The notes under the pieces were generated by a model. It worked only from the letters and a program-made list of their open reading frames with translations, was not told the DNA's origin and did no database searches. Made by a program: the position numbers and the translations under genes. From Callorhinchus milii (lineage: Eukaryota), in the NCBI RefSeq assembly GCF_018977255.1, contig NW_024704761.1, positions 3,286,001 through 3,350,000 of the forward strand: a DNA stretch of 64,000 nucleotides, given 5' to 3'. Positions 16,011 through 63,157 of this stretch are shown in pieces. Position 1 is the first letter of the stretch. Each line of letters begins with the position of its first letter.

Positions 16011-16293
16011 AGCCGCCGCCGTCTCTAATGCCCATTGACGCCGGTGATGAAAAGGGCCTTTCATTGACTTTAAAGGGCCGCCTTCCCGTCACGCTCGGTC
16101 CCAACCCATCAGCGGATTGGCACCCAACCCCCTCCCCCCCCCACTGACCCCCCTCCCCCCCCCACTGACCCCCCACCCCCACCCCCTCCCCCCCCCCACC
16201 ACAAGCTGCGGATTCATTCAGTTGCATCTGTCAATGTTGTTATTCCTCAGTTAAGCGGTGCTGTGCTGTGTTGTGTTGTGTTGTGCCTTCAGG

Positions 16294-19200
16294 ATGTTTG
16301 GCTCGTGGCTCCGGGTCAGCGCCTGTGCTGTTTCCCTGGTGCTCCTCCTGGGCTCTCATGCCGCCCAACAGAAGAGGAATGTGCTTCTGATCGTTGGTGA
16401 GTTAATACTGCGACAGGATTGCTTCACCCACCCCACCCCGAGGTGCGACCGAGGCGGTCCCATCAACCTGTTCGGGTGGATGGCTCGAGAGCCCGTTGGC
16501 GGTATTTCGGTGCGCTGGCCAACAGCCCACCGAATAAAGTTGGCCGCTCACTCCGTAGCTGCTTGTGGGACGTTGCTGTGCACGAGTTGTCCGGCCGTGT
16601 TTGCCAACAAATACACAGTCACTCCATTTCGCGGTAAATCCTGCGAAGCGCCTTGAGACGTCCTTCCGAGACGTGATAATGCTCAACACTAAATGCAAGG
16701 ATTACTATTCCAAAACAAGGGTTCATATGCTGCGCCACCACCCCACTGCCAATTTGTGATAGAGGTGACAGGTGTGATGCCCCATCCCCTCACACAATCA
16801 TTCCCTTTTTGCAAGCCCAGGGCCAGTGAGGCCATTCTCACTGTGTAATACTCCCCCAGCCCAGTCTCTCACAGTGTCACCACTCTCCTCCGGCTCCTAC
16901 GACTCGTGGGGATGTGATGAGGTTGTAGCCCGTGGGAGTTGGGGAGTCAGCGGGTTAGTGTGATTGACAGCTGACTTGTACGTGTGATTGACAGCGGATG
17001 ACGCCGGCTTCGAGACAGAGGTGTACAACAACAGCGCAGTGAGGACGCCGAGCCTAAGCCAGCTCGCCTCCCGCAGCGTGATATTCCGCAATGCCTTCAC
17101 CTCCGTCAGCAGCTGCTCCCCAAGCCGGTCCACCATCCTAACTGGACTCCCACAGGTACCGTCACTGCCTGACTCTGCACAATCTCCCAGCCCCCCACCC
17201 TCCTCCTGGTTCCTCCTGGCTGGAGCCACACTGATCTGTTCTTTCTGCTCCCACCCTCTCAAACTCCATCCCACAGTCTGTCTGCCTCAGCCCCCTAACT
17301 TTCCTCCTCCAAGGCCAGGCTCAAGACCCTCCTCTTGGACTGCGCCTTCAGTCACCCTCCTACCCCCACCTTGCTCAGGCTATACTGTAAAGTGGAGTGA
17401 CTGCATATTTTGTGGGAGAAATCCCGTGTTTCTGCGCCCTCGCTCAGCCTCGCCTCCTCTTGCAGCACCAGAATGGGATGTACGGACTACACCAGGGAAC
17501 CCACCACTTCAACTCCTTCGACAACGTCCGCAGTTTACCGCAGCTGCTCAGCCAAGCTCACATCAGGACAGGTTGGCGAGAAAAAAACTTTTTTTTAATA
17601 TATACACACACACACACACTCGCCTCATTTCCCGCTGAAACTCCTCGAAGAACTTTACAGCAATTCCTGCGACTGTGACGACTCTTTACAGACAAAAGCA
17701 GAAGAGGAGGAGCAGAAAGAAGGTCCTGCAAACAGTCACAAAGTGAACAAGCAAATGTTCCATTCTCCACGAGGAACAGTCAAAACACATTCAGAAGAAC
17801 GTGTGTGTGTGTGTGAGAGAGAGAGACAGAGACACACGCACACATACCCACACGCACAGCCAGCAACAGCAATAACAACAATTTGCGCTTACACAGCATC
17901 TTTCATGTAGGACAATATCGCAGAGTGCTTTACGGAGATTTGGTGTCAAGACACTCAGCAGGGAGGGTGGTGATCGTAGACACGGCCGAACAACGAGGCA
18001 GGATTTTTTCAGGAGGAGGCTTTTATCTACAGATAGATAAAGTGGGGAGCGAGTGAGTCGGAGGGAGTTTCAGTGATGGGGGGTTTGCAGTGGTCAGCGG
18101 CTGTCACCAGTTACCGGCAGCGAGCTCTGGTTTAATTGCCCGCCGGCGCCTGTCTCTGTTTGAAGGTATAATCGGGAAGAAGCACGTGGGGCCGGCCTGG
18201 GTTTACCCGTTTGACTATGCCCAGACCGAGGAGAACCACTCCATCCTGCAGGTCGGGAGGAACATCACGAAAATCAGACAGCTGGTGCGGGACTTCCTAC
18301 ACAGCTCCGATCCCAGGTGAGTCTCGCTTGTGGAGTTCTGTAGCTCAGGGATTAGAGCGCTCGCTTCGCAAGCAAGACCACCCGGGTTGGATTCCCAGGC
18401 AGGGCAAAACCTTAGGCAAGTTTCCTTACTCCACACGCCTCTGTTAACCCAACAGTAAATAGGAACCCGGTTGTTTGTCAATTGGCGGATCGCTTTCCGG
18501 GGGTAATAATCCCACCCAGAAAAAAAAATGGTCACTCAATCCAAAACCCGTTTTGCTCTGCGCAGTTTGGGTGCCGTGTTTCACCCACAGTATATATAAA
18601 TATATAGTCAATTCACTTTACAGTATATTCTTCAACGATGTGATAAGGCACCATATCAAATGCAAGTATTATTACACATCTCCCCCAACGCTCCTGCACT
18701 CTAACAAACCTCCTTCATTCCCTCTCTCTCTCTCTCTCTAGTCCCTTCTTCCTCTACGTAGCTTTCCACGATCCCCATCGCTGTGGTCACTCCCATCCCC
18801 AGTACGGACCATTCTGCGAGAAATTTGGGAACGGGGAGAGTGGGATGGGCTGGATCCCGGACTGGAAACCACAGCATTACACCCCGGAACAAGTCAAGGC
18901 GAGAAAGAACAAAGTTACACTTTTTTACAGGCAGCTTATCCCATCTCAAAACACTTCCCGCGATTCACGTTAAAGTGTTGTGACTACGTGCTTTGTAGGT
19001 GACTAAACAAAGCCAATTTGCACAGAGCGAATGTTCCACAAACTTTGAGACGTTGCAACGATGTGATAAGGCTCTGTATTCAAATGCAACGATTGTCATT
19101 ATTGTAAGGTGGGGGGAGAACATTCCGACAGGAGAGTGACTGATGTGCCTCTCATTCTGCGTCTCTCTCCAGGTCCTGCACTTTGTTCCTGACACACCGG

Positions 19201-20817
19201 CCGCCCGCGCTGACCTGGCCGCTCAGTATACGACAATCAGCCGCCTGGACCAAGGTAACCTCCCACGACACATTGACACAGCGACCGGCAGTAAGTCTCT
19301 TCCCCCTCCCCACCCTGGTTGCCACAGTTCCCCCAACCCCCACCCGGCTCACTGCAGCGAGTGACTGCGCGTTGCCCTATCGTGTCTCCGTGCTGCGTTG
19401 TTGCTCACGTTCCAGGTCGCGCCTGAAGACCTTCCTCTTCGACTGTGCCTACGGTCACCTCCTCTTCCCACGGGCTCGGTGTCAGGCTCCGCCACTGTCA
19501 AGCGCTCCGAGACACAACCCCAAGTGAAGGGTGCTATCGAAATGCGAGTTGTTGTTGCTGACGTTTCCTGTTCGTGGCCGGGGCAGGGATCGGGCTGGTG
19601 CTGAAGGAGCTGCGGGAGGCCGGGCACCAGGATGACACGCTGGTCATTTACAGCTCCGACAACGGCGTCCCCTTCCCCAACGGCAGAACCAATCTGTACC
19701 GGAGCGGAGTGGCCGAGCCTCTGCTCGTCTCGTCCCCCGAGCATCGCCAGCGCTGGGGGCAGGTCAGCGCCTCCTACACCAGCCTGCTCGGTAATCAGCC
19801 GTCACAATAATCCTGGCTAATAATAACAATAATAATAATATTCCTGGCTGTACAGCGTCGCAAGCAAGAGGACACGGGTTCGATTCCCCGGGCAGGACAA
19901 AACCTGTGCGCAATGGGCTGCCGTGTCTAACACACGCGGGAACCCATCACCGTGTTTGAGAGTATCCAAACCAAGCTGCGAATTCCGGGTGTCCCAACGA
20001 CACATGGAAAATTCCAGAGATAGATTGTTGGAATGGAATGCGCTCTCTCTCTCTCTCTCTCTCCTTGGAGGACACATCCTGTTTACCCAATTCTGGGAAG
20101 TATTAGGCGCAGTTTGGCAAGAGCCAAGCCTTGGGTTGCCCAGAATGTGCGTCCCCGTGCTATAGACGCTGGTGGTGGGACCCACCCCAAGCAGACGCTT
20201 ACTGTTTTAACCGTCTCTTTCCTGGTGTTTTCAACCCCGCAGACATAACCCCGACGATCCTGGACTGGTTCTCCATCCCTTACCCGGCTTACTCCATATT
20301 CGGGAAGGGCACCGACGTGCAGCTGACGGGAAAATCCCTGCTCCCGGCTCTGGTGTCGGAGCAGCCGTGGGCGACGGCCTTTGGGAGCCAGAGTCACCAC
20401 GAGGTCACCATGTACTACCCGATGCGAGCGGTGCACAGCGGCCAATACCGGCTCCTCCACAACATCAACTACAAGATGCCCTTCCCCATCGACCAGGACT
20501 TTTACCTGTCGCCCACCTTCCAGGACCTGCTGAACAGGACCGAGTCGGGGAGACCCACCCACTGGTACAAGTCGCTGGCTGGCTATTATTACCGGCAGCG
20601 CTGGGAGCTCTTCGACCTCGACACCGACCCCACCGAGATCCACAACCTGGCCGAGGACCCCCAGTACCAGGACACTCTGGCCCAGTTGAAGGGGCAGCTG
20701 AGCAAATGGCAGTGGCTGACCTCGGATCCCTGGGTTTGCGCCCCGGACGGTGTGTTGGAAGACCAGGGGGATTACAAACACGACCCTCAGTGTCGGCCGC
20801 TGCACAATGACCTCTGA
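16294..20817 (+). CDS. SGSH: N-sulphoglucosamine sulphohydrolase (sulfamidase), 8 exons, about 512 aa
   Basis: Exons 16294-16396, 16995-17155, 17466-17571, 18166-18316, 18742-18898 (GC donor), 19173-19254, 19587-19790, 20243-20817. Signal peptide, NVLLIVADD, formylglycine motif [31 protein letters not shown]-terminus CRPLHNDL*. Confidence 0.96.
18336..18675 (+). mobile_element. tRNA-derived SINE, older copy
   Basis: tRNA-like head (gtagctcag...agagcgctcgcttcgcaagc...gttggattccc) and shared tail ending atcaaatgcaagtattatta. Confidence 0.75.
19955..20125 (+). repeat. Unclassified interspersed repeat; other copies at about 26665-26880 (-), 28350-28530 (+) and partially 37870-37910
   Basis: Shared blocks gagtatccaaacc...attgttggaatggaatg(ct)n...ttggcaagagccaagg. 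Confidence 0.65.
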
Positions 20818-23813: not shown

Positions 23814-25100
23814 ATGCTCGCCCTGGAATGCTCAGCCAGAATGGCTGTTCTGAGTGTGCTGTTCTCCTCGCTGATCTGCAGCCCCGCTGACGCCTGGTAC
23901 AAGCAAACGGCTGGTCCCAGTTACTACTCCGTGGGTAGAGCTTCGGGTCTCCTCTCGGGCATCCGTCGCTCCCCCTATGTGCGTCGTTCCGAGCCCAGCG
24001 AGGGGGCAGAGACAGGTGAAGGCCACCTGTACCCTGAGCTGACACAGCCTCAACAGAGCACGCTGATCAAAAACATGGTGAGTATAGATTCCCTCTCCAC
24101 AAACAATTCCTCATTTCATTGAGGAATCCTGTAGTGCAGTGGTTAGAGCAAGCGAGAGGACCCGGGTTCGATTCCCAGGCAAGTTTCCTTACTCCACAAC
24201 GCCTGTCTACCAGCGAATCACTTTTTGGGGGTAATAATCCCTCCGAAAAAATTGGGTCACTCAATCCACGGCTGTTTATGGGACACTACTGTGTGCAATT
24301 GGCTGCCATGTTTTGCCCACAAAATACAGTCAATTAATTCACTTTACGATATATTCTGTGAAGCGCTTTAAGACTTCTCAACGATGTGAAGGCACTACAT
24401 CAGGTGCAAGGATTATTATAATCATTATTATATCACTCAGTCAGTCAGTCAGTCGCAATCTCATCAGCACCTTGAATAAGATTAGTCTCAAATCAGCTAA
24501 ACTAAGTATTTCAGTCTATTTCACATTTAAATACTGTGGTTGATTTTTAAAAAAATAGCCTGCAGTTTAAACCCAAAAAATCTACGAGACCACAATGTTA
24601 AAGTTGATAAATATTAATTTTAAATACTGTTCCGATTTGGGGAGGGAGGAAAAAATCACTATATATATATATATTAAGACCATGAGTGAGAGGAAATTTT
24701 TATATTTGGGTTTTTGTTTTTGGGCGTTTTATTAATTTCAAATTGATTAATTTCATTTTTGGAGTTTTATCTTTTTTAAAAAAAAGCTATTTCGATGCCA
24801 CAATATGAGCTACGAACATAACCAGGGATTGTTACAATTGGCACTTAAGTTTGGAAAAAAGGGAGGGAATGGTTATTGAAACTATTTTATTACTTTTATG
24901 TAAATAAAGGCACTTGTATTAAACACGAGTATTATTTTCGTTGCTGATTTTGCCTTTGCTCTGGTTTGCAGGCTGTGTGTGTGAAGGACATCTCTCCAAA
25001 CCTGCAGAGCTGTCAGCTGCTGCCCGACAACCTCAACACTTTCCAGTGTAAAGCAGACATTTATCTGTCGCTGGGCTCGCAAGACTGTGTTACTGCTTGA
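23814..25100 (+). CDS. NPB: Neuropeptide B precursor, 2 exons, about 130 aa
   Basis: Exons 23814-24077 and 24972-25100. Signal peptide ends SPADA; mature peptide [29 protein letters not shown] then RR; Cys-rich C-terminus [30 protein letters not shown]. An alternative ATG lies at 23841. Confidence 0.93.
24125..24430 (+). mobile_element. tRNA-derived SINE in the NPB intron
   Basis: cctgtagtgcagtggttagagc...gggttcgattccc head and caaggattatta tail. Confidence 0.8.
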
Positions 25101-27055: not shown

Positions 27056-30000
27056 TTAAAGCAGAGAAACGGCCTCGAGGTTCTCCTTGATGATGGTATC
27101 CATGACGACCTGGAAGACCACTTGCACGTTGGAGGTGTCGGTCGCCGTGGTGAAATGGTGATAAACCAGCTTGGCCACGTTCCTGTTCAGGCTGAGAAAC
27201 TGATTGGCCACGAACCGGGCGCCGGCATCTACATCACAGTCAGCGCCTGGCACAGCGAGAGCAACAATAGCACTGATGGTCACACGAGTAACACGACCAG
27301 TCACACCGACACTCACAGTCACACGAGGGACACGAGCAACAAGAGTCGCGCTAAGAACCACCACCGAGAGTAACGGCAACAACGAACAAGAGTAACAGCA
27401 GCACGAGCAATAGTGGTGAACAATATCAACAGCAATTAGTAGCAGTAATGGTAGCGACGGCATTAACAATAGAAACAATAATGCTGGTAAAAAAGCAACT
27501 TACTCTTAGTAAGAGTAATAATAATATTAGTAACAACAGCAACAGCAATAGTAACAATAGTCCGCGTGTGTGCGTGTGTGTGTGTGGAGAAGACGAATGT
27601 TTGGTACCTCTGTATTCGGAGAAATACAGCCGGAGATGCCTCTCGGAATGTAAAATCTTCTCTTGGAAAAGATCGATTTTATTCAGGAACAAAATCTGAA
27701 AGCGATTTTTTGAAAAAAAAACGAAAATAAATGAAAATAAAAACGAGCGCGACAGATTAAACAGACCCCCACCCGCTCGCCCGGAGTCCAACTGATAACA
27801 TTTCCATTGTTTTTTTTATTTTATAGAGAAACAACAACAAAAAAATATCAATCAATGAATCAAACGCCGCATCGATCGTTAAGAGAAACAGACAAGATTT
27901 GTCAGCGGACAAAAGGACTGATTCTCTCCTGCGGGCAAGAGGCTGTCCAGATAGAAGGCGAAATCTCCGAGATTATTCAGCCCTTTGGAGAGATTTGTCA
28001 CTGAATAATATGTTATTAGAGGCAGTAAATGGAACCAATTAAAGGGAACCTTCAGATAGACGGGAACTGTAAGCGGGGTTGCCAGGCAGAACGAAAAATT
28101 ACCGTCTGCCGGACATTATTGGCTCCGAGTTAATGACAAACGGCAGCCACTGGAGTTCGAAGTGGAACCAGGCTAATTGCAGGTCAGAGGTGAGCGGCTC
28201 TGAGCAGCTCTCCAGAGGAGACTCATTTGCTTGGTGCCTGGGGTAGGGTGGGGGGGGGGGGAGAGGCAATCTCCCTGTGGGGTGGGGGTAACTTCACTCT
28301 GCACATGGTTAGCTGGGAGCCTGACACACGTGGCAGTCCATCACTGGAGGGTCTCCAAAGCAAACCCAAGTTCCGCTTATATCACGCAGGCTCCCCTCAA
28401 GGAAATTCTCCTGTGCCTGGATCAGAATACACTCTCTCTTCCCGGAGGGAGGGTGTTTAACTGCTCAACTGATTCCTGGAGGGTATTGGCCACAGTTTGG
28501 CAAGAGCCAAGGCTTTGGGGCAACCCAGAGTATGGGTGAACGAGTGTGTGTGTGTGTGTGTGTGTGGGGGGGTGTGGGGGGGGGTGGAGAGAGGCAAAAG
28601 TACATCGCCTCAAAGCCAGCTCTGTTCTGAGTACAGGAGGACACTGGGACAAACTCCCTTCTCTTTTCCATTAGGGTGGTGAGATAATAATATTAATAAT
28701 CCTTGCATTTGGCAGAGCCCCCCGTCACATTGTCAAAGCGGAGTGACATGTGGATGGCGAACATTCACATGAACAGGCGCAGACGGGACCTTGGTTTAAC
28801 ATCCCTCCTGAAGGATGACATCAACATCCATGCAGTGCTCCTTCCCCCCCTTCACTGCACTGGAGCAATTGCCTGGACTGCACGAATCCTTCACGCCTGA
28901 ACTACGTACCATAGATGTGCTCCTGAAGAAAACATTATTGCAGATGGAAGAGAAAAGCTTCAAACTCTCCTGTAGTCGATTCTGCGCGAGAGAGAGGGGT
29001 GGGGGGAGGGGGGGGAGAGAGAGAAAAAGAGCAATGTAAATAAACCCTGAACAGGGAGTTAGTCGAACGACACTTCACTTCATTTACAACTCAGCCCCAT
29101 GAATATTAATCACAAACGATAATTGCTTTTCTTGTCCAAGCCTTTTGTGTTTGAAATGGGTTAAATACCATTAGCATTGAGCGGAGGAAATTATAGCCTG
29201 TAATTTTTATATCATATCTGATCACTTTTCCTTCCATCTCACTCCCTCCCCCCACACCCGCAGCCCCCCACAGGACACCCCTGCTGGGAATGTGTGTTAG
29301 CGAGGGAGGTGTGGAGTGAGGTGGGGTGGGGGGGGCGGGGAGGGGTGGTGAGAGAGGGGGGAACGAGGGTCTCACCACAGTCAGCTCCTCCAGTAGTGTC
29401 ATATCATATCCACTCAGTGCGGCCACGTACAGCACCGCTCGCACCTCCTCGAAACAGCCGATCCACTTCCTGCGCTCCGTCCTCTGCCCCCCCACGTCGT
29501 ACATCCTGGGAAACAGAGGAAACACGACTGTTTGGGTGTCAGCCGGGCGCAGCGGGTAGCGCTCTCTCCTGCCAGCCAGAGGATTTCGCCCACAAAATAC
29601 ACAGTCCCTCCACTTTACAGTATATCCCGTGAAGCGCTTTGAGGCGTCTCGAAGACGTGATACGGCGCTATAGCAAACATAAGGATTATTTTTTTTATTG
29701 TGACTAAGATTGCGGGTTCGAGCCTTCACGTCGGGGACTTGGATTCACAGATGATGCTCCAATGCAGCCCTGAGGGTGTGTTGCATTGTCAGAGGTGCTG
29801 TCCTTTGATGAGATTTTTTTTAACATATATATATACACACACACATACACACACACAATTTAACATATAATACATATATTATATGTTATACCAAGCTCCT
29901 GTTCAGGTAAGCATTAAAGATCCTGTGGCACTGTTTGAAAAGAAGGGAGTGACTGTGTATTTTGTAGGCAAACACGGCAGCACTATTGCACACCGCCGTG

Positions 30001-33000
30001 TCCCACAAACAGCCACGGAGTGAGTGAATAATTTTATTTGGAGGATTGTCGGCCAGGATACCGGGAGAAAGAAACTCTCCCTTTTCAGAGTTTCTGTCTC
30101 TTTTCGAATAGCGCCACAGAATCTTTAACGTCCGCCTGGACAGACAGACGAGCCCTCGGTTTAACGTCTCGATCAAAACGAGTGAAACGAGGAAAGTTTC
30201 CGCTGCCGAAACGAACATCTCTCACCTTGAGACGGAGAGAAAAAGAATCACGAAATGATAAAGAAACGAGTTCTTCCCCCACATCCGAATAACATTAACC
30301 TATAGAGGGCTAAAGAGGGAGCGAACAAGACAGTTCATTTGTACAGACTGCGTCAGTGTGCAGTAAAGCGGAACGTTTAATTCCATTGCAGAAATGAGTA
30401 ATCCTTATCCCGCCATTAAAAAGAATTTCAAATCAACTTCTAATCCTGCCCATTAATTGTTAATCACCAAACTCCCTGCGGCATTTCCAGGACCTTTTGT
30501 AAGGTTTCGAAATACTGTGTACACGTACAAAATCAATATATAATACAATACAGAATGTGTCTAAACACACACAGTATCCAGATACACATTACACTTTACA
30601 TATAATAAACATGCAAATATCTATAATAATCCTTGCATTTGTTAAAGCACCTTAGCACGTCTCAAAGTGCTTCACAGTATACATTGTAAAGTGGATTTTT
30701 GGGGGCGAAACACTGCAGCAAATTGCACACAGCAGTCCCACAGACAGTCGTGGATTGAGTGACCAAATTATTATTATTTCTTTTTCTTTTGAAGGTAGTA
30801 TTTTTACAGGCATTATGGAGTCGGTGTTTAACTTATTCCCCATGAGGAGATGATCTGATTTGAGTTTGAGTTTCTTACAACATAGAGATTAAAATCTGCC
30901 CATCATCAGCAGCGAGAAATCAAATCAAAGTTTTAATAAATGCGGATTCAATCAATCCCATTATCTCTGGGTTTAATGGTTAAAGGGGGTGAGCCACATC
31001 CTTTTGTTTTGTTGCTGAGCCCAACATCCTGTCATACTCCCCCTCAACATCGACAATTTTTGCCACAAGATACATAGTCACTCCACTTTACGGTATATTC
31101 TGGGAAGCCCTTTGAGGTGGTAAAACACTATATCAAATGCAAGGATTATTATCAGTAATAACAAAGTGAGTGTGACAGAGAGAAAGAAAGTCAGAGATAG
31201 ATGGTGAGAGTGAGACAGAGCGAGAGAGAGAGAGAGCGCAAACGAGAGACAGAGGGAGAGAGTCAGAGCGAGGGCGAGAAAGAGGACGGAGAGAAAAGAG
31301 AGACAGAACGAGACAAAGCGAGAGGGTGAGAGAAATGACAGACAGATTGTCAGCGAGTGAGTGAGTGCGAGGTGCACGGTGAGGGTGGGGGGTCAGGGCT
31401 CCACAAGGCGGACAGTGAATGTTACAGTGTCGGGCTGTGATCAACCGTGGGGGTAGGGGGAGGGAGGAATGGAGGCTTCGCTCACAGAAAGGTAAGCCGT
31501 GCGCTGGGGTCACCAGCGACCACAATTACAGCTTCGCAGGTTCAGGCTGTGAAAACAAGTTACCTTCTCATTACAGTCATTAGCGCGGAGTGGAGAGACA
31601 GGCGGGCGGCACGAAGCCCGTCCATCACTGCCGAGGGGAGCTGCCAGCTTCAATTACTGCTGACCTTCTCAGCCTGAGATACTGTATGACAGCAGCAAAT
31701 ATAGATAGAAATAAACACTGGGGGTCAGCCTGGCACCCCAGCACTGCCCGACACTGAACCCACTCCCCACACCCCCCCCCCCCACACTTACACACACACA
31801 CACACACAACTTCTCCCTCAAACCCTCTCCTCCCAACCGCCAAAGCTCCAGCCCCCATTCCTCCGCCACAGCAACTGGCTGGTGAGGGGGTCAGAGAGAG
31901 AGAGAGAGAGAGAGAGAGTGCGAGTGTGTGAGGATGAAAGAAAAGATAAAAGTGAGACAGAATAAAGAGAATGGAAAACGGAAAGAATCAGAAAGAACGA
32001 GGGAGAAAACAGAAAGTGTGAAAAGAGAAAGCCGAGAGAGAGAGAGAGAGAAAGAGAGAGAAAAAGAGGGAGGGAGAGGAAGAAAGAATAGAAAGAAAAA
32101 GAAGAGGAAAAAGAAATAAAAAAAGAGTAAATGTGAAACGCAGTGGGTGGAACAAGTCACCTCTCGGACAGCAAACGTCCTCTACACTCGGTGTGACCGA
32201 CACTGTATCAGCCCCGAGGCTATTTTACCCTCCATTCTCTCTAGTAATTATTTCACTATTAAAGGCTGACTCACTGCAGGGACGTTGTGAGCTGTTGCTG
32301 GCCTCGCACCACAAGCGTTAATAAGAGCTTCAGCTTCCTTCATTATCACTGGTGGAACGTGAGACAGGAGCCACAGTGGGGTGGGAGTGGGGGGGAAGAA
32401 GCGAGGTGAGGAGAGGGGTGTGTGGGGGGCAAAAGCAAAGTTAATTGACTGTATATTTTGTGGGCAAAACACGGCAGTCAATGATGCACAGGAGTGTCCC
32501 ACAAACAGTCGTGGATTGAGTGACCAATTTTATTATTATTATTATTATTATTTTGGAGGGATTATTACCCCCGGAAAGCGATCTGCCAATCGACCAACAA
32601 GGAAACTTGCCTATGGCTTTGCCCGGCTTGGGAATCGAACTACATTACAGGACCTTCCACCTCGCGCACCCCCCCCCACTCCACCCCACCCCACAGACTC
32701 AGTGCCATCTTCTCACCTGAAAATCAAGTTGTTGATTTTGAACTGAGTCTCGATGACGCCTGCTGTGCGGAGTCGGACCCGCAGGAGGTCAGTCTGGGTG
32801 GGTCTGTAACCCGGAGCCGTGATCCGGTTAATGTTTACGAAGAAACTGCGGGAGGGGAAAAAACACACACAAATACAAAGGAATAATCTTTCCATTTGAC
32901 ACAGTGCCTTTATCACGTCGTCGAGACGTCTCGAAAGCGCTTCGCAGGACACGCTGCAAAGCGGAGTGACTGTTTATTCTGAGGACAAGATGCGGCAGCC

Positions 33001-36000
33001 AATTTTGCGCAGCCGCAGGGTGAGCGCGAGGGAGATTGTTGGCCAGGTCACCAACTGGGGAGAGAGAAACCGGGTGCAATTGCGCTGCGGTGTTTGCCTA
33101 CAAAATACAGTCACTCCCTTCTCTACATGAACAGCGCCGCAATATCTTTAACATCCACCTGAGCAGACAGACGGGGAACTCGGTTTAATGTCTCATCCGA
33201 AGGATGGCACCTCCGTCAATGCAACACCCCCCACCCCAGCAATGCATAGGTGCGCATTTATTAAGATAAAATGGGCAAAAAAGGAGAGCGGAGAGACAGA
33301 GAATCTTCAGCTCCTCCACCCATCAGCCCCCCCACCCCCAACCTGCTGGGTTCCTCGCTCCCCGGGACACGATTCCTGGCTCAGCCGCGATGTTGGTGTT
33401 CCGTCTGTCAGTCTCCGCGCTGGAGCCCGAAATTGACATTAAGCAGAGCTCCGGGCAGAGGGACGAGCGACAGACGTCAATCTCAGCCTCAAATCTGATC
33501 TGACACCTGTCAGGTTTTGGCTTGTTTTATGAAGGGGCGGGCGGCGGAGGGAGAGAGAGCGGGGTTGGGGTGGGGGGAGGGGGCAGAGGGGGTTTAGGAT
33601 GTTTTGTCCTCTTTCCTTGTGGCAAAGTGCAGCCCATGCCTGTTGCTCAGCGATCAGCCAGACCGTAACCACAGCCGTCTGTGCCGACCACAATCAACAC
33701 TGGCGACACCTCCCATCATCCAACACCCACTCGCGGAGTGTCAGGAGGCTGTGGTGGAGTGGGGTGTTGATCGCGGATATAAATATCTTGGCTGTGGGGG
33801 TGGGGGGGGGGTAAGGAAAGAGTGACAGCAACCAAGAAACCATTTGCTGAGATAAAAGGAAGATCCGGTGATGTTTTTCTGTCTCGTCAAACGTGTTTGT
33901 TTTCCACAGAAAACACGCCCGAGACAAACAGACCAGACGGGAGAGAAACCCACCGTCCTCCCCAACCCTCGTCACCTCCCCACCCACCCTCAAGACGTGA
34001 CGAGCATCGCTTTAAAACCCCTCCCCTCCCCAGGGCTTGACGATTGCGTCACAGCGATCAGCGGGTTTGACACTTGTGCTGGACCCTAATCCGTTTCCCG
34101 ACTCCGAGAGAGTAGACGCACAATATTCCTGCTAATGCCATATCCTCCCCGTCAATCAACGGCGATAAAATAATAATAATAATCTTTGCATTTGATATAG
34201 CGCTTTTCACGTCGGGAGGACGTCCCAAAGCGCTTCACAGAACACACTGTAAAGTGAATTGACTGTATATTTGTGGGCGAACGCGGCAGCCAATTGCGCA
34301 CTGCAATGTCCCACAAACAGTCGTAGATTGAAAATGACCAATTTATTATTGTTTTTGGTTTTGGAGGATTATTATTAGGCTCTGTGTGGAGTAAGGAAAC
34401 TTGCCCAAGGTTTTGCCCTCTGCCTGGAATTAAACTCAGTTCTTTCGCTTGCAAAGCGAGTGCTCTAACCATTGAACTACAGGACCCGACTCAGTGTAAT
34501 GTGAAGGTGGAGGGTATCTGAGGGCTGGCTCGCTCTCTGGTCATTACAGGGACTTTCGCTGGTGGGGATGGGGGTGGGAGACAGACACACAGCCTGGACT
34601 GGGAAGCGTATGTTTATCTGTAAAGTGAGTCACTGCACACAGCGTCTCAGGGGTAACGAGAGACAGCAGCTCGAGCTCGCAATCGCGTTAGCGCTCTGCC
34701 AGCCTCCTCCACTCCAGCTTTTAATATTGCGCCCTCCCTCGGGCTGGTCCCTCGCCTCCCATTGCACACCAAATACATTCCGCCCGTAGTATATTCTACA
34801 GATGGCAAGTGGAGCGAGAGCCAGTAAATGGGGGATACCAGCCTCCGACACTGCCCAACGCCCCCCCACCCACCACACACCCACCTCTCCCCCCGCCCAC
34901 ACCCCCCACCACACAAACACACACCCACCCCACATGCAAACACCACACAGACAAAGACACACACACACACGTTAAAGATCCATGAAGAAGAGAAGTTCCT
35001 CTCTCCAGATGTCCTGGCCAACAATGCCGCAAAATCAAATTGGTTGCTCACTTCGTAGCTGTTTGCGGGACATTGCTGTCATGTTTGTCTGCAAAACCCA
35101 CAGTCACTACACTTGACAGCAATCAAGGTGTTTTGACAGTAAAGTCATGATATTGAATGCCAGGATTATTGGAGTTATGTAATTCCCTGTGAGGAGATTT
35201 GACTGACCAAAGCCACCCCCCGGGACACACAAACACATTGATCCTCCGCACTATGTAGTTACCAGAAAGGACCCCTTCTCCACTGGGACCCCCACCCCCT
35301 CCGGCCAAACTGCTCAGTGATCGTGTGATAATCATATCAACCTCTGCAAAGCTCGTGTCACCTATGAGTCAGTGTAAATGGCACACGGTTGTTTAAGGAG
35401 TATAAAAGGACCAATGTTTTCACAATCAGCGGGCTGTGACCTGCACCTCCCTGGACCCTGCTTAATGTCAAAGGCAGTAATTAGCTCATTTCATCTCCAA
35501 AATTACAACCCAGACACTGCCCGCGAGTTCCAATTACACATTGTTTCACAAATGTCACTGGCAGCTCCGACAGAATCATAATAATAATCCTTGCATTTCG
35601 ATACAGCGCTTTTATCACGTCATCGAGTCGCACCAAAGCGCTTCACGGGACATACTGTAAAGTGGAGTGACTGTGTATTTTAATGGGCGAAACGCAGCAG
35701 CCAGTTTTGCACCCAAGCAACGTGCCACAAACAATGTCCCGGACAAAACAGCCATGGAGTGAGTGACAGATGTTATGTTGGGGATTATTGGCCAACACAC
35801 CAGGAGAGAGAAACTCCCTTCTCTTTTGGAATAGCGCCGCGGGACCTTTAACGTTCCACCCCCCCTCCACCACCCCCCAGTGCTGCGTTGGAGCGTCAGC
35901 TTAGACGGTGCGATTCCAATTCCTGACGTGGGGGCTCGAACCCACAACCTTCTGACTTGGAGGTGAGAGAGAGCGCTACCAATGGGCTGAGCTGACACAC

Positions 36001-39000
36001 TTTCTGATCAGGAATCGACGACGACAGATCCACGCAGGAGGGGAGGAAGTCACTCACTAGTGGGCGGAGTCGTTCAGCTCGTATTCGTAGCCGCGACTGG
36101 CCGCCAGCCGGACCGCGGGATCCGCCCACAGGCAGCGCAGAGCGTGACCAACGAACGGCAAAAGCGTCTCATCCTCGTCAAAGCAACGACCGCACGACAG
36201 CACGGTCTGCGCGTGAGTCTGAAACACAAACAAACCAGCCGGGAGTCAGAGTCGTGGGGTTGGGGGGGGGGGGGCGAAACCAGGCACAGGCTCATCCAAC
36301 TCCCACCCCTCCCAACCCTTCACCCCCAGCCCCAAACATTAAAAAAAAATATTTCAAGCGAGAGATTGGGGCTAAACGGGCTCTTGCACTGACACGAGGG
36401 TCTACCAGCTTTAATGCGCCAGCGGCTGCCAGGATCGTGGAAGGCAAACTGGATGGACCTTGGTCGTCTTTCGTCTGGCAATTCCTGTGTCCTTATTAAC
36501 TGGGGCTGTTCTCTCCGCACCACCCACCACCAGAAGGACTGAGGTCCAGGACTGCAGGAACCAGAGGAAAGTTGTAACTGACTCCAGAGCCAGGTTTCTC
36601 TCCAGCTGGTCCTGACTCACTGAGAAAATCTACCAGCTGATAACTGAAGCGTTCCTGCCACCTTCTGGAGGTAATCGGGTCACTGCAGGTATATTTTCAT
36701 TATAATAATAATAATCCTTGCATTTGATATCGCGCTTTTCACGTCGGGAGGACGTCCCAAAGCGCTTCACAGAACACACTGTAAAGTGAATTGACTGTAT
36801 ATTTGTGGGCGAACGCGGCAGCCAATGGCGCACAGCAATGTCCCACAAACAGTCGTAGATTGAAAATGACCAATTTATTATTGTTTTTGGTTTTCGAGGG
36901 ATTATTATTAGGCTCTGTGTGGAGTAAGGAAACTTGCCCAAGGTTTCGCCCTCTGCCTGGAATTGAACTCCAACCACTGAGCTACAGGACTCCACAAATC
37001 AGGTGGGGAGGGAAGGAAGAAGAAAATAAACAAGTCTCTGCCTCGGATTGATTCCTCTGATGGGAAATTCGCCCCCCTCTCCCCTGCGCCTCCTCCACCC
37101 GAGCTCTTACCGTGTTCCTGGGGATGGCGAGGTTGATCCGGAGGATTCCCATGCCCTGCAGCACAAACTTCATGGAACTCAGGAGATTGTCCAGAACAGC
37201 CGGCTGTGAGCGAAAAGGGGGGGGGGTGAGGGCAGAGAATAAACCAGAACCTTTGTAGAGATGAGAATCGCAAAGAGTTACGGCCGATAGCATCAGCTGA
37301 ACGAGTGGAAAAGGGAGTTTCTCTCTGCCCCACCCGGCCATAAATTGTTCGCTCACTTCATGACATTTCTGTGCGCAAACTGTCTGTCGAGTTTCTCCCG
37401 CAGCGCACACAGTTATTTCGCTTGGCAGCGATTGCCTGTGAAGCACTTTAAGGCTGTAACTGTCCAGCGCCTTGGGACGTCCTCCCGACGTGAAAGGCGC
37501 TCTATAAATGAAATCTTGTTGTTGGTGTTACAGACACTGGGTTATTTATCACTTTGGATATTTACCCATTGACTTTGGTAAAGACACGAGGTTTGCCCTC
37601 CGTCTCCAACAGGGACACGAGGGGGGGAGGGCTGGCGCCTGACCTCTGCCGGTCCCTCGAGCCCAAACCACAAGCAAAGCCACATGACAGGAGAATCCAC
37701 CACCAACAAAACCCCTCTTTCTCCTCCACCCCGACACCAGGAAAAATACAGCCATTGTCCCCCGGAGACCCAGTGTTGGCCTGAGGTGCCGAGCAATGCC
37801 AGCTCCTCAATTATCCCATGAACTAACCGTGGAAACGGCTTCAGGCCATGTGCAGGCCTTCAAGATGGGAGTATCCAAACCAAACAGAGTTCCGTGCATT
37901 CCACCTACACAGGTTGTGGTTTGACGCCACAAAACTTTGACAACAAAACAGGTGTAGAGATTGCAGCTCACAGGTTTCCATTATAACCTGTTATACTGTT
38001 ACATTCAGGACAGCACAAGTTCTGACACGCTCTATTCAACTGGGCGTAGCAGCTCTCATTTACCACACAACGCAACTCCCCAGAGATCCCGTCACTGTGA
38101 CATTCTAGGAAATGGAAGAAGGATCCTCCTCCCTCGCTGCGTCCTGGCCAACACTCCCCAGGTCCCTGGTTGAGTTAACCATCTAACAATCAGCCCAGAC
38201 CAATGCTGAGTTCGCAAACCTGGAGCCCTCTAAAGCTTGGTTCAAGCCACACAATGTCGCCAACCAGGCCACTGGGGGGGCACCCTACACACCCACAATC
38301 AGCCCCACCCAACAAGTTAAAGACTCTTACCATATTATAGTTGAGCTCTGGCTTTCTAGTAAAGCAAGGAACGTTACAGGACAAGAGGCCATTCAGCCCC
38401 TTGTGTTTGTGCTCTATTCAATAGCTCTGCACTTAGTCCCAATCTCCCACCTTCTCCCCCTCGGTCTCCCTCACCTCCCGCGCCCCACCTATTTAATAAT
38501 AATCCTTGCATTGGATACAGCGCATTTCACGTTGGGAGGACGTCTCAAAGCGCATCGCTGTTTTTAGCCGCAAAGTGCTATCTTTTTGGATATTTCTGCT
38601 AATTCCCCTCTTAAAAGCTCACGTGGATTGTGCTTCAACTAACTGCACTTCCAGCTCAGGCATTCCACATTCCAACACCCCTCGGTGTACAACAGCTCCC
38701 CTGACCTCACTCCCTTTGTTTCTTTGTTCAAATAAATAACTCGAAGATCACTGCTTAGTGGTTATGTTCAAGCTCGCTCGCTGTTACTGTGTTGGAAAGG
38801 GGAGGGGGTTGTGCGTGTGTGTATATATGTTTTATACATTACATATATGTGCGTGGGTGTGTTTATAGTGTGTTTGTGTCTGCGTGTGTCTGTCTGTCCG
38901 CCTGCACATGCAAACAAGGAGCTGTCAATCATTCTTCAAAATCACAGGACCTGGAATGTAGTGGAACGAGTTGCTATGAAACTCAGACGATGATTCACCC

Positions 39001-42000
39001 TGGAGCTGGCTCTCAGCCAACATTAGGAACCAGGGAATCTCCAGATAATAATAATCCTTGCATTTGATATAGCGCCTCATCACGTCTTCTAGATGTCTCA
39101 AAGTGCTTCACAGGATATACTGTAAAGTGGATTGACTGTGTATTTTGTGAGAGAAACGCGGCAGCCAATTGCGCACAGCAGTATCCCAGAGTCGTGGATT
39201 AAGGGACCAAATTTTGGGGGGGACGGATTATTGCCCCTGGAAAGCGATTCCGCCAATTGACTAATAACTGGGTTCCTACTTACTGCTGGGTAAAAACAGA
39301 GGTGTGTGGAATAAGGAAATGTTAAATACTCCTTCCTCACTAATGAACACAGAGCATCTCTCCATCTACGCTGTCTCTTTCAGCCTTCTCACTCACCCCT
39401 ACCCCCACCCCTCGTCCATGATAAGCCAATCAGCCCCTCGAGCCTGTTCCGCCATCTTATTAGCTCAAGGCTGATTGTATCTCAACTCCATTTACTCGCG
39501 TTCATCCCATATCCCTTGATACCCTGACCTAATAAAAATCTATCGATCGACCTCAGTCTTGAAAATCTCAATTGATCCAGCGTCCACAGCCTTTTAGGGG
39601 ATGGAGAGTTCTGGATTTCCACTGGCCTTTGTATGGAAAAAGTGTTTCCAGATTTCACTCCTGAATGGCCTTTGTCATTTTAAACACCTCAATTAGATAA
39701 CCCAACCTTCTAAACTCAAGGGAAGGTATGATAGGTATTATAAATAATATATTATTTGTAGGTATTACATATGTTGGATATTGTACATAATACGCTTTAC
39801 AGTACATCCTGTGAAGCATTTTGAAACATCTCAAAGACTTGATAAGGCGCTATATCAAATGCAAGGATTACTATTATTATGGCTGGGGGTGGGTGTGGGG
39901 ATAGTTTAAATTAAACAGTGGGAACTGATGACCCTCAGTGACTGATGTGGCGATGGTTTTGTTTTACAGGTTACAACAAACTCTCACTAACCTGGACTTG
40001 CATCAAACGTTCCCTGGGGGCTTGAAAAGACTTTTAATCAGGAAGCAAAGTGACGGGCTGCGGTTCCCGTGCCTCACTCCCGCTGTTTATGAGACGCAGC
40101 TGGTTCAGAGCCTCAGACTACCGAGTTCTCCACCTTCCTGGCTTTATTCCTCCCCCTCCCCCCACCCCCAGTGAAAATCTGCTCCATGTTTCATCTCTTA
40201 GCCCACAAAATATACATTAACCACGCCTCACAGTCAACTCTGTCAAATGCTTTGAGACGTCGTCCTGACGTGAAAACTGTACCCCTCCCCCCTGACTACC
40301 TCGCTCAACATTCCTGGCAATGCAACAACACTGACATTCCAGGATTGGTGAAAAGCCATGTGGGAGTGGAAGCCACTTACAGCTATTTAAGGCTGCCAAG
40401 AATTCCCTGAAATCACAGCCACTACACTTGACAGCAATTCCCAGTGACACACACGCTTGGAGGTATTTTGATGCACTGGAACAAACACAAGGATCGTCAT
40501 TACTAACATTAGGAATTCCTCATCGAACCTGAGTCACACTGAGTCTTTTTTTTCCCTCTCTTTCTCGCTCTCTCTCTCTCTCTCTCTGAGTCGTTACCTT
40601 GAAACTTGCAAGTTCTTCATCGCTGAACCCATGACTGTGGATGATCTTCATCTGTTTGACCAGAGTGCTCTTCCCACTCTCCGCTGCACCTGGAGAAAGG
40701 TCGAGAAGTTCTTTGAAGAGTTTACATACAAAGGACATCTCCTAGATTCTGCACTGGGCCAATGGCAACACTAGTGGTTGTGTGTTCAAGACTCGAGGAG
40801 TTAGTTAGTTCCCTCAGCAAAGGTGAGGCAACCTCACAGATAACGTTCCTCTGCAGTCACTTTATTTCACAGTAAATTCTGTGAAATGCTTTGAGATGTC
40901 CTTCTGACGTGATAAGGGGCTAATACCAAATGAAAAGATTGTTATTATTGGAGACGTTTTTGTGGGATCAGGCACCGTGTCTAACGCAAGGACGGTTATG
41001 GCTGGTGCCTTTTTTCTTCCCATTCATTTTCAGCTTCCCAGTCACCACGGAGCAGTTGTACAATGACGCCCTTGGATATTCCCGACATAGCACTAACGAC
41101 CACTTAGCATGGCAGTCAGAAAAGGGGCAGTGGGGGAGGAAGAGTTCAGTCGAAAATAGTGTACAATATAGCTTTAATTGGTTACAGTAGGACTCTCAAG
41201 CCTTCCATTAAAACTTGCCTTCAGAAGCAACAATCCTCCTCTCTTTTTTAAAAAAAAAACCTCAGCAAGTTTGTCAGATGAAACTTTTTCCTCTTGCACA
41301 AAAGGCTTCTTTTATTGGCTGGGCTGGGGCTGGCCAAACTGGCTCTGGTTTTATTCAATAAAGAGAGCAACTGAGATTTGATCAACGATGTGATGGTAGA
41401 TTGGGACATCACAATCTAACTCGAAATTGGAAAGTAATTGGCTTTTAAAGAGATGAGGTCGATTCTGGTGTGTGTTGTGTGTGTGGTTTTTGGGGGTTTG
41501 ATGACCAAACTCTATGAGGTCATGTCACAAATACACTCGCTTGTCACTAGAAGCTTTTGCTTGGTTCTTGTTCCTCCTAATTTAAAAGCCCCACATTTTT
41601 TTGGGGGGTGGGTCGGTGCTAACTTAACCTTAGCCCCCAAAGAACGACTCTGCTGTACCCCAATCTGGTGGGGGGTGAACCCCCACACACGTGTCTATTT
41701 ATTTACTATACTTACAATACACAAGTTATTCTCCGCTCGCCTGTGATCCCAGTTACACGCCCCATAAAAGCAACATACAAATCATCCGCAGCGGTGCAAC
41801 TTAGAACATTAATACATATATTTATATAAAGAAAACATAAGAATACCTTCAGAGCAGGCAGCATCAGGTCAGACTTAAGGTAACTGCATTTACAGGGGGG
41901 AGGATTTCTTTTTTTTAAAAAAGGGAGTAAATTAAATTCTCCTAAAAAATCAAAGCAAAAAAAAATCCCAACCCATAACATTAACATTAGTCCATTTACA

Positions 42001-42780
42001 GTAGAAACAAATATAAACCAGTGGGAAAGTTTAGGGGGTAGTTTTGAAGACAGTCCGGGTTTGGACTGTCAGGTCACACATTCCACCTTCCCTTTCCCTG
42101 GTTTAGCAGCCAGACTGTGTGTGTGTGAATGAGTGAGTGAGTGTATGTGTGAATGAGTGAGTGTATGTGTAAATGAGTGAGTGTATGTGTGAATGAGTGT
42201 GTGTGTGAGTGAGTGAGTGTATGTGTGAATGAGTGAATGTATATGTGAATGAGTGTGTGTCTGAATGAGTGAGTGAGTGAATGAGTGTGTGTGTGAATGA
42301 GTGAGTGAGTGTATGTGTGAATGAGTGTATGTGTGTGAAGGAGTGTGTGTGAATGAGTGAGTGAGTGAATGAATGTGTGTGAATGAACGAGTGAGTGTGT
42401 GAATGAGTGTGTGAATGAATGAGTGGGTGTGTGAATGAGTGTGTNNNNNNNNNNNNNNNNNNNNNNNNNNNNNNNNNNNNNNNNNNNNNNNNNNNNNNNN
42501 NNNNNNNNNNNNNNNNNNNNNNNNNNNNNNNNNNNNNNNNNNNNNNNNNNNNNNNNNNNNNNNNNNNNNNNNNNNNNNNNNNNNNNNNNNNNNNGTGTGT
42601 GTGTGTGAATGAGTGAGTGTGTGTGAGTGTGTGTGTGAGTTTCTACTTACCCAGAAGTAGGATTTTCACTACGTTGAACTCTTGTTTGGCGAACTCGTAT
42701 AACGCGCGGTCGATTTTCTCGCTGCGTATCCGCGCCTCGCGCTCCTCAGCGCTCGCATCCGACCCCAAGCAGAGCCCCAT
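27056..42780 (-). CDS. GNAV1: Heterotrimeric G protein alpha subunit, Gv class, 9 exons, 361 aa
   Basis: Exons 42780-42651, 40689-40598, 37203-37111, 36218-36058, 32845-32717, 29505-29376, 28981-28910, 27695-27608, 27246-27056; total 1086 nt, all GT-AG and in frame. Motifs [37 protein letters not shown] and C-terminus [10 protein letters not shown] match the Gv class. Confidence 0.92.
27255..27590. repeat. Low-complexity (AAC/AAT/AGT-rich) degenerate repeat in the last GNAV1 intron
   Basis: Runs such as agcaacaatagtaacaat. Confidence 0.6.
29570..30230. mobile_element. Cluster of SINE fragments, both Deu-type and shared tail, on both strands
   Basis: Recurrent cacaaaatacacagtc...gtgaagcgctttgag tail and Deu core. 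Confidence 0.6.
31890..32130. repeat. GA-rich polypurine low-complexity tract
   Basis: (GA)n and GAAA runs. Confidence 0.8.
32880..33245 (-). mobile_element. Deu-domain SINE
   Basis: Reverse complement contains gtgccatccttcggatgagacattaaaccgag...caggtggatgttaaagat plus the shared tail. Confidence 0.65.
34168..34487 (-). mobile_element. Young full-length tRNA(Ala-like)-derived SINE
   Basis: Head gggtcctgtagttcaatggttagagcactcgctttgcaagcg with a TGC anticodon-like loop and a (TTA)n tail; nearly identical to 36702-36990 and 56546-56846. Confidence 0.85.
35577..35995 (-). mobile_element. tRNA-headed Deu-type SINE, near full length
   Basis: Head ...ggtagcgctctc..gtcagaaggttgtgggttcgagcccc and tail ...aaatgcaaggattattatt. 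Confidence 0.7.
36702..36990 (-). mobile_element. Young tRNA-derived SINE, same subfamily as 34168-34487
   Basis: Near-identical body and tail, with a short deletion in the head. Confidence 0.85.
39046..39330 (-). mobile_element. SINE, 3' portion
   Basis: Shared tail aataataatccttgcatttgatatagcgcc on the + strand. Confidence 0.7.
39420..39720 (-). mobile_element. CR1-like LINE 3' fragment
   Basis: cagcccctcgagcctgttccgccat...cccatatcccttgataccc...tccacagcc...ggagagttc, typical of inverted CR1 3' regions. Confidence 0.6.
42115..42640. repeat. (TG/TGAG/TGAA)n microsatellite with assembly gap, GNAV1 intron 1
   Basis: Direct inspection. Confidence 0.9.
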
Positions 42781-47251: not shown

Positions 47252-51433
<4,182 letters not shown>

Positions 51434-61800: not shown

Positions 61801-63157
61801 CGGCACACAAACAGCAAAACGTTTTTTATGAGAATTACAATTTACAAACTGAACAGTTTAAAAGGAGGTCATGGTCGCTGTATCCATTTTTAAAAAGCAA
61901 TGCTACAGCCTATTGTACGCTAAAAGCTAACAGATAAAAACACACCATGCACGCACAGTGCTCTCCAGAACCAGCGAGGAAACAAATAATGGAAGTACAA
62001 GTCATTTCTGAGGTGAAATCAGCAAAGGTCTGTCTCAGAGGCGTTAAAAAGATCGGTTTAATTGTCAAACAACGATAATCACTGCCACTGACATGATAAT
62101 GAATCACCACCAAGAACAATAAGGATGCACAATAAAAAGGTTTTAAGGAATTTTGAAATACAAAAAATTTGCCAAACCTATAATTTTCATTATACGATGC
62201 CCCTCAAAAGTCTTCAGAATTTGCTCCAAGTTTCTTTGCCGCCCTCCCTCCCAACCCCCAGTGTAGTGGAAGAATAGGTTTAACATGCTACCCTGCATAC
62301 ATGCTGGCTTTTATTTTTTTTTAAACATTGATTCAGATTTCACTTGCAAACCGTTTGAGATCACATCAACTGTGCATAATGGTGACAGTAACTCGACACT
62401 GGGACCTTCAATATTGTACACTCCCAGAGAATAAATTCCGAACACACACTGCACCCAGGGATTGTAGTAAAAAAGAGTTTGAAATGAAATGCCTCAACTT
62501 TCCATTCAGCTACATTGTGGAGGAGAGAACAAAATGGAATTTGGCTCATAATTTTATGGGTCTAGAGAACAACAAGGGGTGAGTCAATTGCCTTCCAGAC
62601 CAGGATAAAATAAAATCATGTTTCACTATCTGAGGACCAGTTAAAGTCTAAAATTTAGAAAACACCAACAACGCTTGTATTTTAATTGTTGATCTTAAAA
62701 AAAATCTTTAAATAGAAATAAGCATGATATATATATTTATATTATATATATAAAATCCATTTTCTGCAAAAACATAAGATATTTGAATAGTCTACAGTGT
62801 TAGACTTTCTCCAAGTCAACAGAACAAGAATAAATAGAATTTATAACTAATTTAAATTACACATAGAACGGATTTGTTTTTACAGCGCGGGACTCTATAA
62901 TCACAGTTATTTGGATATTTACAAGTAATTTGGTTTAGTACATGCAAAGTCTTTAGAATGCCCTTCAGTGCACATCATTTTAGCGGTTAGAACTATTAAA
63001 AAGTATTCATATTTTGTCAAGTAAAATGCATTGTAAAGTTAAAATGCCAAAACACGGTAAACCTTAAAAACCGAGTGTTAAAGAAAGTGTTTGTAAAATG
63101 TAGTGTGTTGGTGTAAACAAACATCACAAGTGGATATTTCAGTTTTGTCAGAAAAGT

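What the first reader, a model, noticed from the sequence alone, without database searches (positions are those of the whole stretch)
27056..42780. Intact Gv-class G-alpha gene between NPB and PCYT2, a candidate site of Gv loss or a second Gv paralog
Seen: a complete 9-exon, 361-aa G-alpha with Gv hallmarks (GAAES P-loop, TTATDT G5 box, C-terminus EAVSLL with no pertussis-toxin Cys, MGLC acylation motif). Established: Gv is the poorly characterised fifth G-alpha class, absent from mammals. ARL16, SLC26A11, SGSH, NPB and PCYT2 are human 17q25.3 genes, and NPB and PCYT2 are adjacent there. Inference: this window preserves an arrangement showing where a Gv gene was deleted in the lineage to mammals. 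If teleost gnav1 has different neighbours, this could instead be an undescribed Gv ohnolog. A GPCR ligand gene (NPB) lying tail-to-tail with an orphan G-alpha also invites a test of NPBWR-Gv coupling.
Basis: partly seen in the sequence, partly recalled or inferred. Interest (0 to 1): 0.72.

Follow-up and report, generated by a model that had tools for sequence, protein, structure and literature searches.

The report
Known chimaera Gv; turtles kept theirs
This is the ordinary, already annotated elephant-shark gene of the little-studied fifth G-protein class (Gv), but its database relatives include full-length proteins from four turtle species, so a class said to be lost in all land vertebrates likely survived into reptiles and is likely decaying there now.

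Summary
The gene is real: nine GT-AG exons, 361 aa, identical to the NCBI protein 'G protein alpha v1' of Callorhinchus milii. Spliced contigs from two studies join exons 2-9. It is the only Gv found in the genome and is sister to shark and ray Gv. Its link to NPB recurs in 25 of 27 other fishes and is in print for gar and teleosts (PMC6684226). So it is a plain ortholog, not an ohnolog. A second copy of exons 1-2 in the window is an assembly artefact. Nothing supports NPBWR-Gv coupling. The surprise lies elsewhere. Four turtles have full-length Gv, misnamed 'G(o)-like', and three more have damaged models, although PMC5896119 places the loss at the base of tetrapods. Differences among turtles ignore conserved sites (9 of 24, against 38 of 497 in fish), which suggests ongoing decay. 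Turtle synteny and expression are untested. The scan's earlier notes hold one invertebrate Gv finding, none on this locus or on turtles.

The parts
42651..42780 (-). gnav1 exon 1 (ATG at 42780; MGLCLGS, Gly2 and Cys4)
   Evidence: protein identical to P0003; intron 1 not tested with reads
40598..40689 (-). gnav1 exon 2 (P-loop GAAESGKS, Ala46)
   Evidence: (records 16, 19)
37111..37203 (-). gnav1 exon 3
36058..36218 (-). gnav1 exon 4 (helical domain)
32717..32845 (-). gnav1 exon 5 (switch I: Arg183, Thr186, Ala187, Gly188)
29376..29505 (-). gnav1 exon 6 (DVGGQ, Gln209)
28910..28981 (-). gnav1 exon 7 (first half of the exon that is single in Gi/Gq)
27608..27695 (-). gnav1 exon 8 (NKID)
27056..27246 (-). 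gnav1 exon 9, coding part (TTATDT, EAVSLL, stop); contigs run on to at least 26799
23814..25100 (+). NPB, two coding exons (23814-24077, 24972-25100), 130 aa
   Evidence: identical to P0177; Pfam NPBW E 6e-50
47256..51400 (-). 3' exons of PCYT2, first copy (upper limit approximate); the 5' exons lie once, beyond the window
   Evidence: motif positions; name from recalled motifs, no Pfam hit on two fragments
52926..64000 (.). false duplication: second copy of 37221 onward (Gv intron 2, exons 2 and 1, PCYT2 3' exons), running to window-equivalent 68833
16255..20817 (+). SGSH (limits approximate), part of the conserved block
   Evidence: ORFs; Pfam SGSH_C E 4e-11
6684..12410 (-).
   Evidence: ORFs; Pfam STAS E 1e-6

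Best explanation
The locus is the single, spliced elephant-shark gnav1 gene, a plain ortholog of shark, coelacanth and fish Gv, lying in a likely ancestral jawed-vertebrate block (SGSH, NPB, Gv, PCYT2) from which Gv was likely lost several times in land vertebrates, with turtles still carrying it. Shown: gene structure, splicing, tree position, intact G1-G5 motifs with Arg183, Thr186 and Gln209. Inferred from family knowledge: it is a membrane-anchored G-alpha GDP/GTP switch (acylation predicted at Gly2/Cys4), activated by a still unknown GPCR and predicted insensitive to pertussis toxin (no Cys at -4). By analogy with the zebrafish mutant (PMC11087313) it most likely feeds ion-transporter regulation. 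Ala46, at the position of Gi1 Gly42, would probably slow GTP hydrolysis somewhat, and Ala187 may weaken RGS binding; both are untested. The neighbourhood with NPB is most likely inherited gene order, not a receptor-G-protein link.
For: Identity with annotated C. milii alpha v1. Spliced contigs in two studies. One Gv-like last exon among 15 matches in G000, next best 54%; the 13 other G-alpha loci I sampled group as Gi/Gt/Go/Gz, Gq or G12, split from all Gv at 100/100. Gv-only tree follows the species tree: cartilaginous fishes 99/97, bony vertebrates with turtles 95/88, ray-fins without turtles 95/99. Nine exons with split exon 7/8 and shifted intron 2, as PMC5896119 defines GNAV and reports for ghostshark. 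Same-length contig for Gv and NPB in 25 of 27 other fishes; adjacent tags SKAU_G00116680/690 and EPR50_G00157900/890. Turtle proteins.
Against: Synteny outside this genome is indirect (contig lengths, locus tags, accession numbers, one paper's text); Umbra and Sebastes did not match. No turtle neighbour could be checked, turtles with lobe-fins has only 61/35 support, and a turtle position outside all other jawed-vertebrate Gv is not rejected (AU p 0.087). No Gs row was in the tree. The genome search scores only the best candidates (78). No Gv structure was among the best 60 of 353 PDB hits and I found no biochemistry; Gi1 G42V is GTPase-deficient but G42R hydrolyses normally (PMC3285607), so the effect of Ala46 is open.
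Confidence: 0.9

Rival explanations
1. The window gene is an undescribed second Gv ohnolog, distinct from gnav1.
For: A second Gv clade exists in teleosts (100/100), and the window holds second copies of exons 1-2.
Against: The second clade is teleost-only, is also linked to npb-like genes and is already reported as a teleost-duplication pair (PMC5896119). The window protein is sister to shark and ray alpha v1. The extra exons are an assembly overlap.
Confidence: 0.02
2. The 15.7-kb repeat is a real tandem duplication giving a truncated Gv (exons 1-2) and a partial PCYT2.
For: The copies differ by a 300-bp SINE-like insertion and some substitutions. The read laying tables are cut, so a bridging contig could be unlisted.
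Against: Copy 1 ends exactly at the N gap and copy 2 starts 71 bp after it. Contigs of 12,231 and 5,058 nt run past 52895, and one runs past 52997, into sequence not on the assembled junction. At the listed differences near the copy ends, four DNA runs show one version at full depth, that of the other copy.
Confidence: 0.05
3. Gv sits beside NPB because it is the transducer of NPBWR1/2.
For: Tail-to-tail linkage is kept across jawed fishes and in both teleost duplicates. No Gv receptor is known (PMC11087313).
Against: The whole block is conserved, housekeeping genes included; NPBWR1/2 couple primarily to Gi (PMC6684226); NPB stays next to PCYT2 in humans (PMC5607249), a lineage reported to lack Gv.
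Confidence: 0.05
4. The turtle proteins are not vertical descendants of this locus but contamination, or a separate ancient paralog, so the published single loss of gnav1 at the base of tetrapods stands.
For: Long turtle stem (0.41); AU test does not reject a place outside other jawed-vertebrate Gv (p 0.087); no turtle synteny seen; no other tetrapod among the best 120 of 788 hits.
Against: Seven turtle species, five on contigs of 42-58 Mb; their branching matches the turtle relationships I recall (Chelydra outside the emydids); about 68% identity to every fish Gv, so no close fish donor; the best tree places them among bony vertebrates and outside ray-fins. Even a separate paralog would still be a tetrapod Gv.
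Confidence: 0.12

Closest known systems
Callorhinchus milii gnav1, 'G protein alpha v1' (XP_042198321.1; ghostshark GNAV in Lokits et al. 2018, PMC5896119)
   Same: Identical 361-aa protein; nine-exon structure as described.
   Different: None at protein level. Two UniRef models of this gene (P0001, P0002) have wrong starts and miss exon 7.
Zebrafish and other teleost gnav1 (Abu Obaid et al. 2024, PMC11087313; synteny in PMC6684226)
   Same: About 78% identity to a cyprinid gnav1; same motifs; same neighbours npb, sgsh, slc26a11, pcyt2.
   Different: The window gene predates the teleost duplication, so it is co-ortholog of both teleost copies; Ala187 replaces the Thr/Ser/Cys of relatives; no functional data in cartilaginous fishes found.
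Gi/Go/Gt class (best PDB matches gustducin, Gi2, Go)
   Same: Same Pfam G-alpha domain, same catalytic Arg, Thr and Gln; several shared intron positions.
   Different: Separated by a 100/100 branch; Ala in the P-loop, no Cys at -4, split exon 7/8, shifted intron 2.
Turtle 'G(o) subunit alpha-like' proteins (XP_053903106.1, XP_005283122, XP_034646388.1, KAG6936821.1)
   Same: 361 aa (373 in Trachemys), MGLCLGS start, Ala at the P-loop position, all G boxes, about 67% identity to the window protein; inside jawed-vertebrate Gv at 100/100.
   Different: Named Go-like; long stem; differences among turtles are not depleted at conserved sites; three further species have damaged models.

Membership tests
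Heterotrimeric G-alpha | G-alpha domain with intact G1-G5 boxes and catalytic Arg and Gln | tested here: met
   PF00503 E 3e-111; motifs
Gv (GNAV) | Falls in the Gv subtree, apart from Gi/o, Gq and G12 | tested here: met
   100/100 against 13 G-alpha loci of the same genome; no Gs row was included
Gv (GNAV) | Nine coding exons, exon 7 split in two, intron 2 shifted relative to GNAI (PMC5896119) | tested here: met
   Introns after codons 74 and 269; the genome's Gi/Gq genes break near 58 and have one exon over 246-299
Gv (GNAV) | Class-specific residues listed by Oka et al. 2009 | not testable with these tools
   Paper not held; only motif counts within the hit set were made
gnav1 ortholog group of jawed vertebrates | Single copy with conserved NPB/PCYT2 neighbourhood | tested here: met
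   PMC6684226. Indirect outside this genome
Gi/o class | Cys at position -4 (recalled) and grouping with Gi/Go/Gz/Gt | tested here: not met
   Val358; tree
Gv (GNAV), turtle proteins | Fall in the Gv subtree with intact G boxes | tested here: met
   for Chelydra, Chrysemys, Malaclemys (Trachemys in 61 and 74 only)
Gv (GNAV), turtle proteins | Nine-exon structure and position between NPB and PCYT2 | not testable with these tools
   No turtle DNA reachable; no turtle NPB among the best 120 of 426 hits
Heterotrimeric G-alpha | GTP binding, hydrolysis, acylation and GPCR coupling | not testable with these tools
   Needs bench work

The most novel reading that the evidence does not exclude
Gv was not lost at the base of tetrapods. 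It stayed under selection through the amniote stem into turtles, where it is still an open 361-aa frame in snapping, painted, slider and diamondback turtles and is breaking down in others. The NPB-PCYT2 interval marked by this window is then the site of repeated independent losses (mammals, lizards, birds and crocodiles, amphibians), and turtles catch a whole G-alpha class in the act of disappearing.
Probability: 0.7. Interest if true: 0.55.

Novelty: new member of a known kind. Interest (0 to 1): 0.38.

Why it matters
The window gene itself is already known and ordinary; the novelty grade is for the turtle proteins reached from it. Two papers state that Gv was lost in tetrapods (PMC5896119 section on G-alpha-v; PMC11087313 introduction), and the second cites this loss as ground for an aquatic role. 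Turtle Gv would move the loss from one early event to several late ones, give an amniote in which to look for Gv expression, and let the timing of loss be tested against habitat. The window gives the landmark (between NPB and PCYT2) where remnants should be sought.

Tried and rejected
Second Gv in the genome: none in two protein searches. Tandem duplication: rejected. The look-up of sequencing runs listed no holder on record as RNA; the spliced joins are the evidence for a transcript. Turtle synteny through NPB: no turtle among the best 120 of 426. ESM Atlas gave only generic G-alpha clusters. Defining papers by Oka et al. were not held. The Lokits supplement gave 145 characters and four unreadable files, so I do not know which turtle, if any, they examined; this bears on the novelty claim. 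Earlier scan notes by sequence, place and relatives were empty; a word search gave seven unrelated notes. A scan of stop-to-stop frames in 120 kb of flank named no further neighbours. No structure or complex was predicted, since no binding claim is made. The re-rooted print shifts support labels; I quote the Newick string.
Full report
Observation. The minus strand holds nine coding exons from 42780 to 27056, all eight introns GT-AG, giving 361 aa. The protein equals P0003, NCBI 'G protein alpha v1 [Callorhinchus milii]', XP_042198321.1. Contigs from runs of two studies skip introns 2 to 8 at these coordinates: one record joins exons 9-8-7-6-5, one joins 6-5-4, two join 4-3-2 (table 8). The runs are only guessed to be RNA by the tool, but the joins are spliced; intron 1 was outside the stretch laid. 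The one substitution listed inside a coding exon (32812) is synonymous. NPB is on + at 23814-25100 and equals P0177. PCYT2 ends at 47256 on -; that name rests on recalled motifs. SGSH_C and STAS domains confirm two upstream neighbours; the ARL16 fragment scored only E 0.032 for Arf.

Class. In a 263-column tree of 41 Gv-like rows and 13 partial G-alpha rows from this genome, all Gv rows are split from Gi/Gt/Go/Gz, Gq and G12 at 100/100, and jawed-vertebrate Gv from invertebrate Gv at 100/100 (no Gs row; labels of the 13 rows are mine). Introns after codons 74 and 269 match the GNAV definition in PMC5896119 (passages and sections 6 and 15 read), while the genome's Gi/Gq genes have one exon over 246-299. 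That paper already lists ghostshark GNAV with this structure.

Copy number. Fifteen last-exon matches in G000 include one at 100%, the rest at 38-54%; the full-length search adds only second copies of exons 1 and 2 inside the window. These belong to a repeat of 37221-52895 at 52997-68833, 97-99% alike, that meets at the 30-N gap. In four DNA runs of one study, contigs of 12,231 and 5,058 nt pass 52895 and one passes 52997 into sequence not on the assembled junction, and none is listed on 52926-52996 (tables cut). At differences near the copy ends (52288, 52303, 52374, 52385, 52406; 53652, 53872, 53897, 56003, 57159) all four runs show the other copy's letters, at or near full depth. The 5' PCYT2 exons occur once, beyond copy 2. 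This is an overlap of two contig ends, so the true order is NPB, Gv, PCYT2, once each.

Orthology and synteny. A 28-row full-length tree follows the species tree: window plus four sharks and rays 99/97, bony vertebrates 95/88, ray-fins 95/99. For 27 other species in which I saw both a Gv and an NPB row with a usable contig length, 25 share the length; Umbra and Sebastes do not, which two teleost copies of each gene could explain; lungfish was left out because its length is capped (numbers from 13, 17, 53, 55, 64). Locus tags are consecutive in Synaphobranchus and Perca, accessions three apart in Cetorhinus, and both genes share a 2.9-Mb scaffold in Amia calva. A salmonid Gv model is named PCYT2 in UniRef, as expected of adjacent genes. 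PMC6684226 (passages) states that teleost npbb lies with slc26a11, sgsh, gnav1 and pcyt2 and gar NPB with all of them, and that NPBWR1/2 couple primarily to Gi. PMC5896119 (passages) already gives two GNAV copies in Euteleostei. PMC5607249 (one passage) lists NPB and PCYT2 consecutively in human 17q25.3. The ohnolog reading therefore fails and the place of loss is plausible.

How it likely works. Shown: intact G boxes with Arg183, Thr186, Gly188 and Gln209. Inferred: a GPCR-activated GDP/GTP switch, acylated at Gly2/Cys4 (Ser is at 7, not at the recalled consensus position 6), with no Cys at -4. The zebrafish mutant shows lower Ca, Mg and K and altered ion-transporter expression, with receptor and effector unknown (PMC11087313; abstract, introduction and most of the discussion read), so ion homeostasis is the best guess here. 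Ala46 matches the Gi1 Gly42 position (numbering recalled, register). It is Ala in 92 of 110 non-turtle v1 rows (13 gaps), 42 of 46 v2 rows and all 6 turtle rows that cover it, but Gly in 12 of 14 invertebrate-group rows, at least one of which is probably a misplaced fish row. G42V lowers GTPase activity strongly, yet G42R does not (PMC3285607, passages), so I give slower hydrolysis about even odds. Ala187, at a Thr recalled as an RGS contact, occurs in none of the 181 other rows.

Turtles. The first search returned a snapping-turtle protein. Following it gave full-length proteins in Malaclemys, Chrysemys and Chelydra (361 aa) and Trachemys (373 aa, a 12-residue insert at the exon 2/3 joint), all named Go-like, on contigs of 14-58 Mb. 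Three further models look damaged: Emys (frameshift-like tail), Caretta (switch regions out of frame, G4 and G5 altered) and Platysternon (178 aa, short G5); these could be annotation or assembly errors. Turtles form a 100/100 clade with a 0.41 stem among bony vertebrates, outside ray-fins. Their union with coelacanth and lungfish has only 61/35 support, and a place outside all other jawed-vertebrate Gv is not rejected (AU p 0.087). Of 164 columns invariant in 18 non-turtle Gv, Chelydra against Malaclemys differs at 9, of 24 differences, no depletion (p 0.53). Twelve control fish pairs put 38 of 497 differences there (p 9e-5 for the contrast; pairs not fully independent). Malaclemys against lungfish is still depleted (25 of 123 against 63 of 152, p 0.0003). 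I infer selection along most of the stem and relaxation in crown turtles. No other tetrapod was named among the best 120 of 788 hits; fragments under 167 aa were not searched there.

What is in print. PMC5896119 says GNAV was lost at the base of Tetrapoda; PMC11087313 repeats loss in tetrapods. Searches for gnav1+turtle (0 papers), GNAV+turtle+G protein (3), Galphav+turtle (1) and a broader one (25 listed, titles unrelated) found no report of turtle Gv; in PMC5896119 'turtle' occurs only in a reference. The library lacks subscription papers, both Oka 2009 papers could not be fetched, and the species table of PMC5896119 was unreadable, so absence from print is not proven. PMC11344465 and PMC12716839 (passages) add nothing on this.

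Verdict. The window gene is known and ordinary (alone about 0.12). The turtle result is unverified for synteny and expression but contradicts a repeated statement about a whole G-alpha class; overall interest 0.38.

Noticed in passing
window 37221-52895 and 52997-64000 (on to G000:C20 window-equivalent 68833): 15.7-kb false duplication at a 30-N gap, doubling Gv exons 1-2 and the 3' half of PCYT2; ends of both copies carry indel errors.
   Followed up: yes
window 22735-22871 and 23677-23813: A 137-bp stretch directly before the NPB ATG, with a TATA-like TTTAAATA, is repeated at 100% identity 942 bp upstream: a duplicated promoter or an assembly slip.
   Followed up: no
window 56546-56847: SINE-like insertion present in copy 2 only; one run has a contig across the empty site and another has the filled junction, so it is likely polymorphic. 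Near-identical copies lie at 34165-34457 and 36699-36970.
   Followed up: partly
window 52926-52996: 71 bases after the gap match neither copy, and no contig of four DNA runs is listed on them.
   Followed up: partly
window 32761-32763: Ala187 in switch I, seen in none of 181 other Gv-like rows; the position varies (Thr, Ser, Cys, Asn) across Gv.
   Followed up: partly
P0338 (Labeo rohita), P0155 (Chanos chanos): Divergent Gv-like proteins outside Euteleostei; Chanos groups with the second teleost clade, so that copy was kept more widely than PMC5896119 states. P0338 was not put in a tree.
   Followed up: partly
searches hit lists: Many Gv proteins (lungfish, skate, sturgeon, amphioxus, horseshoe crab, insects, velvet worm) are named 'G(o) alpha-like', which hides the class in name searches.
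   Followed up: partly
L030-L032 (G000:C14:14170000-14197000): Two alternative pairs of last exons in the GNAO-like gene, as described for vertebrates in PMC5896119.
   Followed up: no
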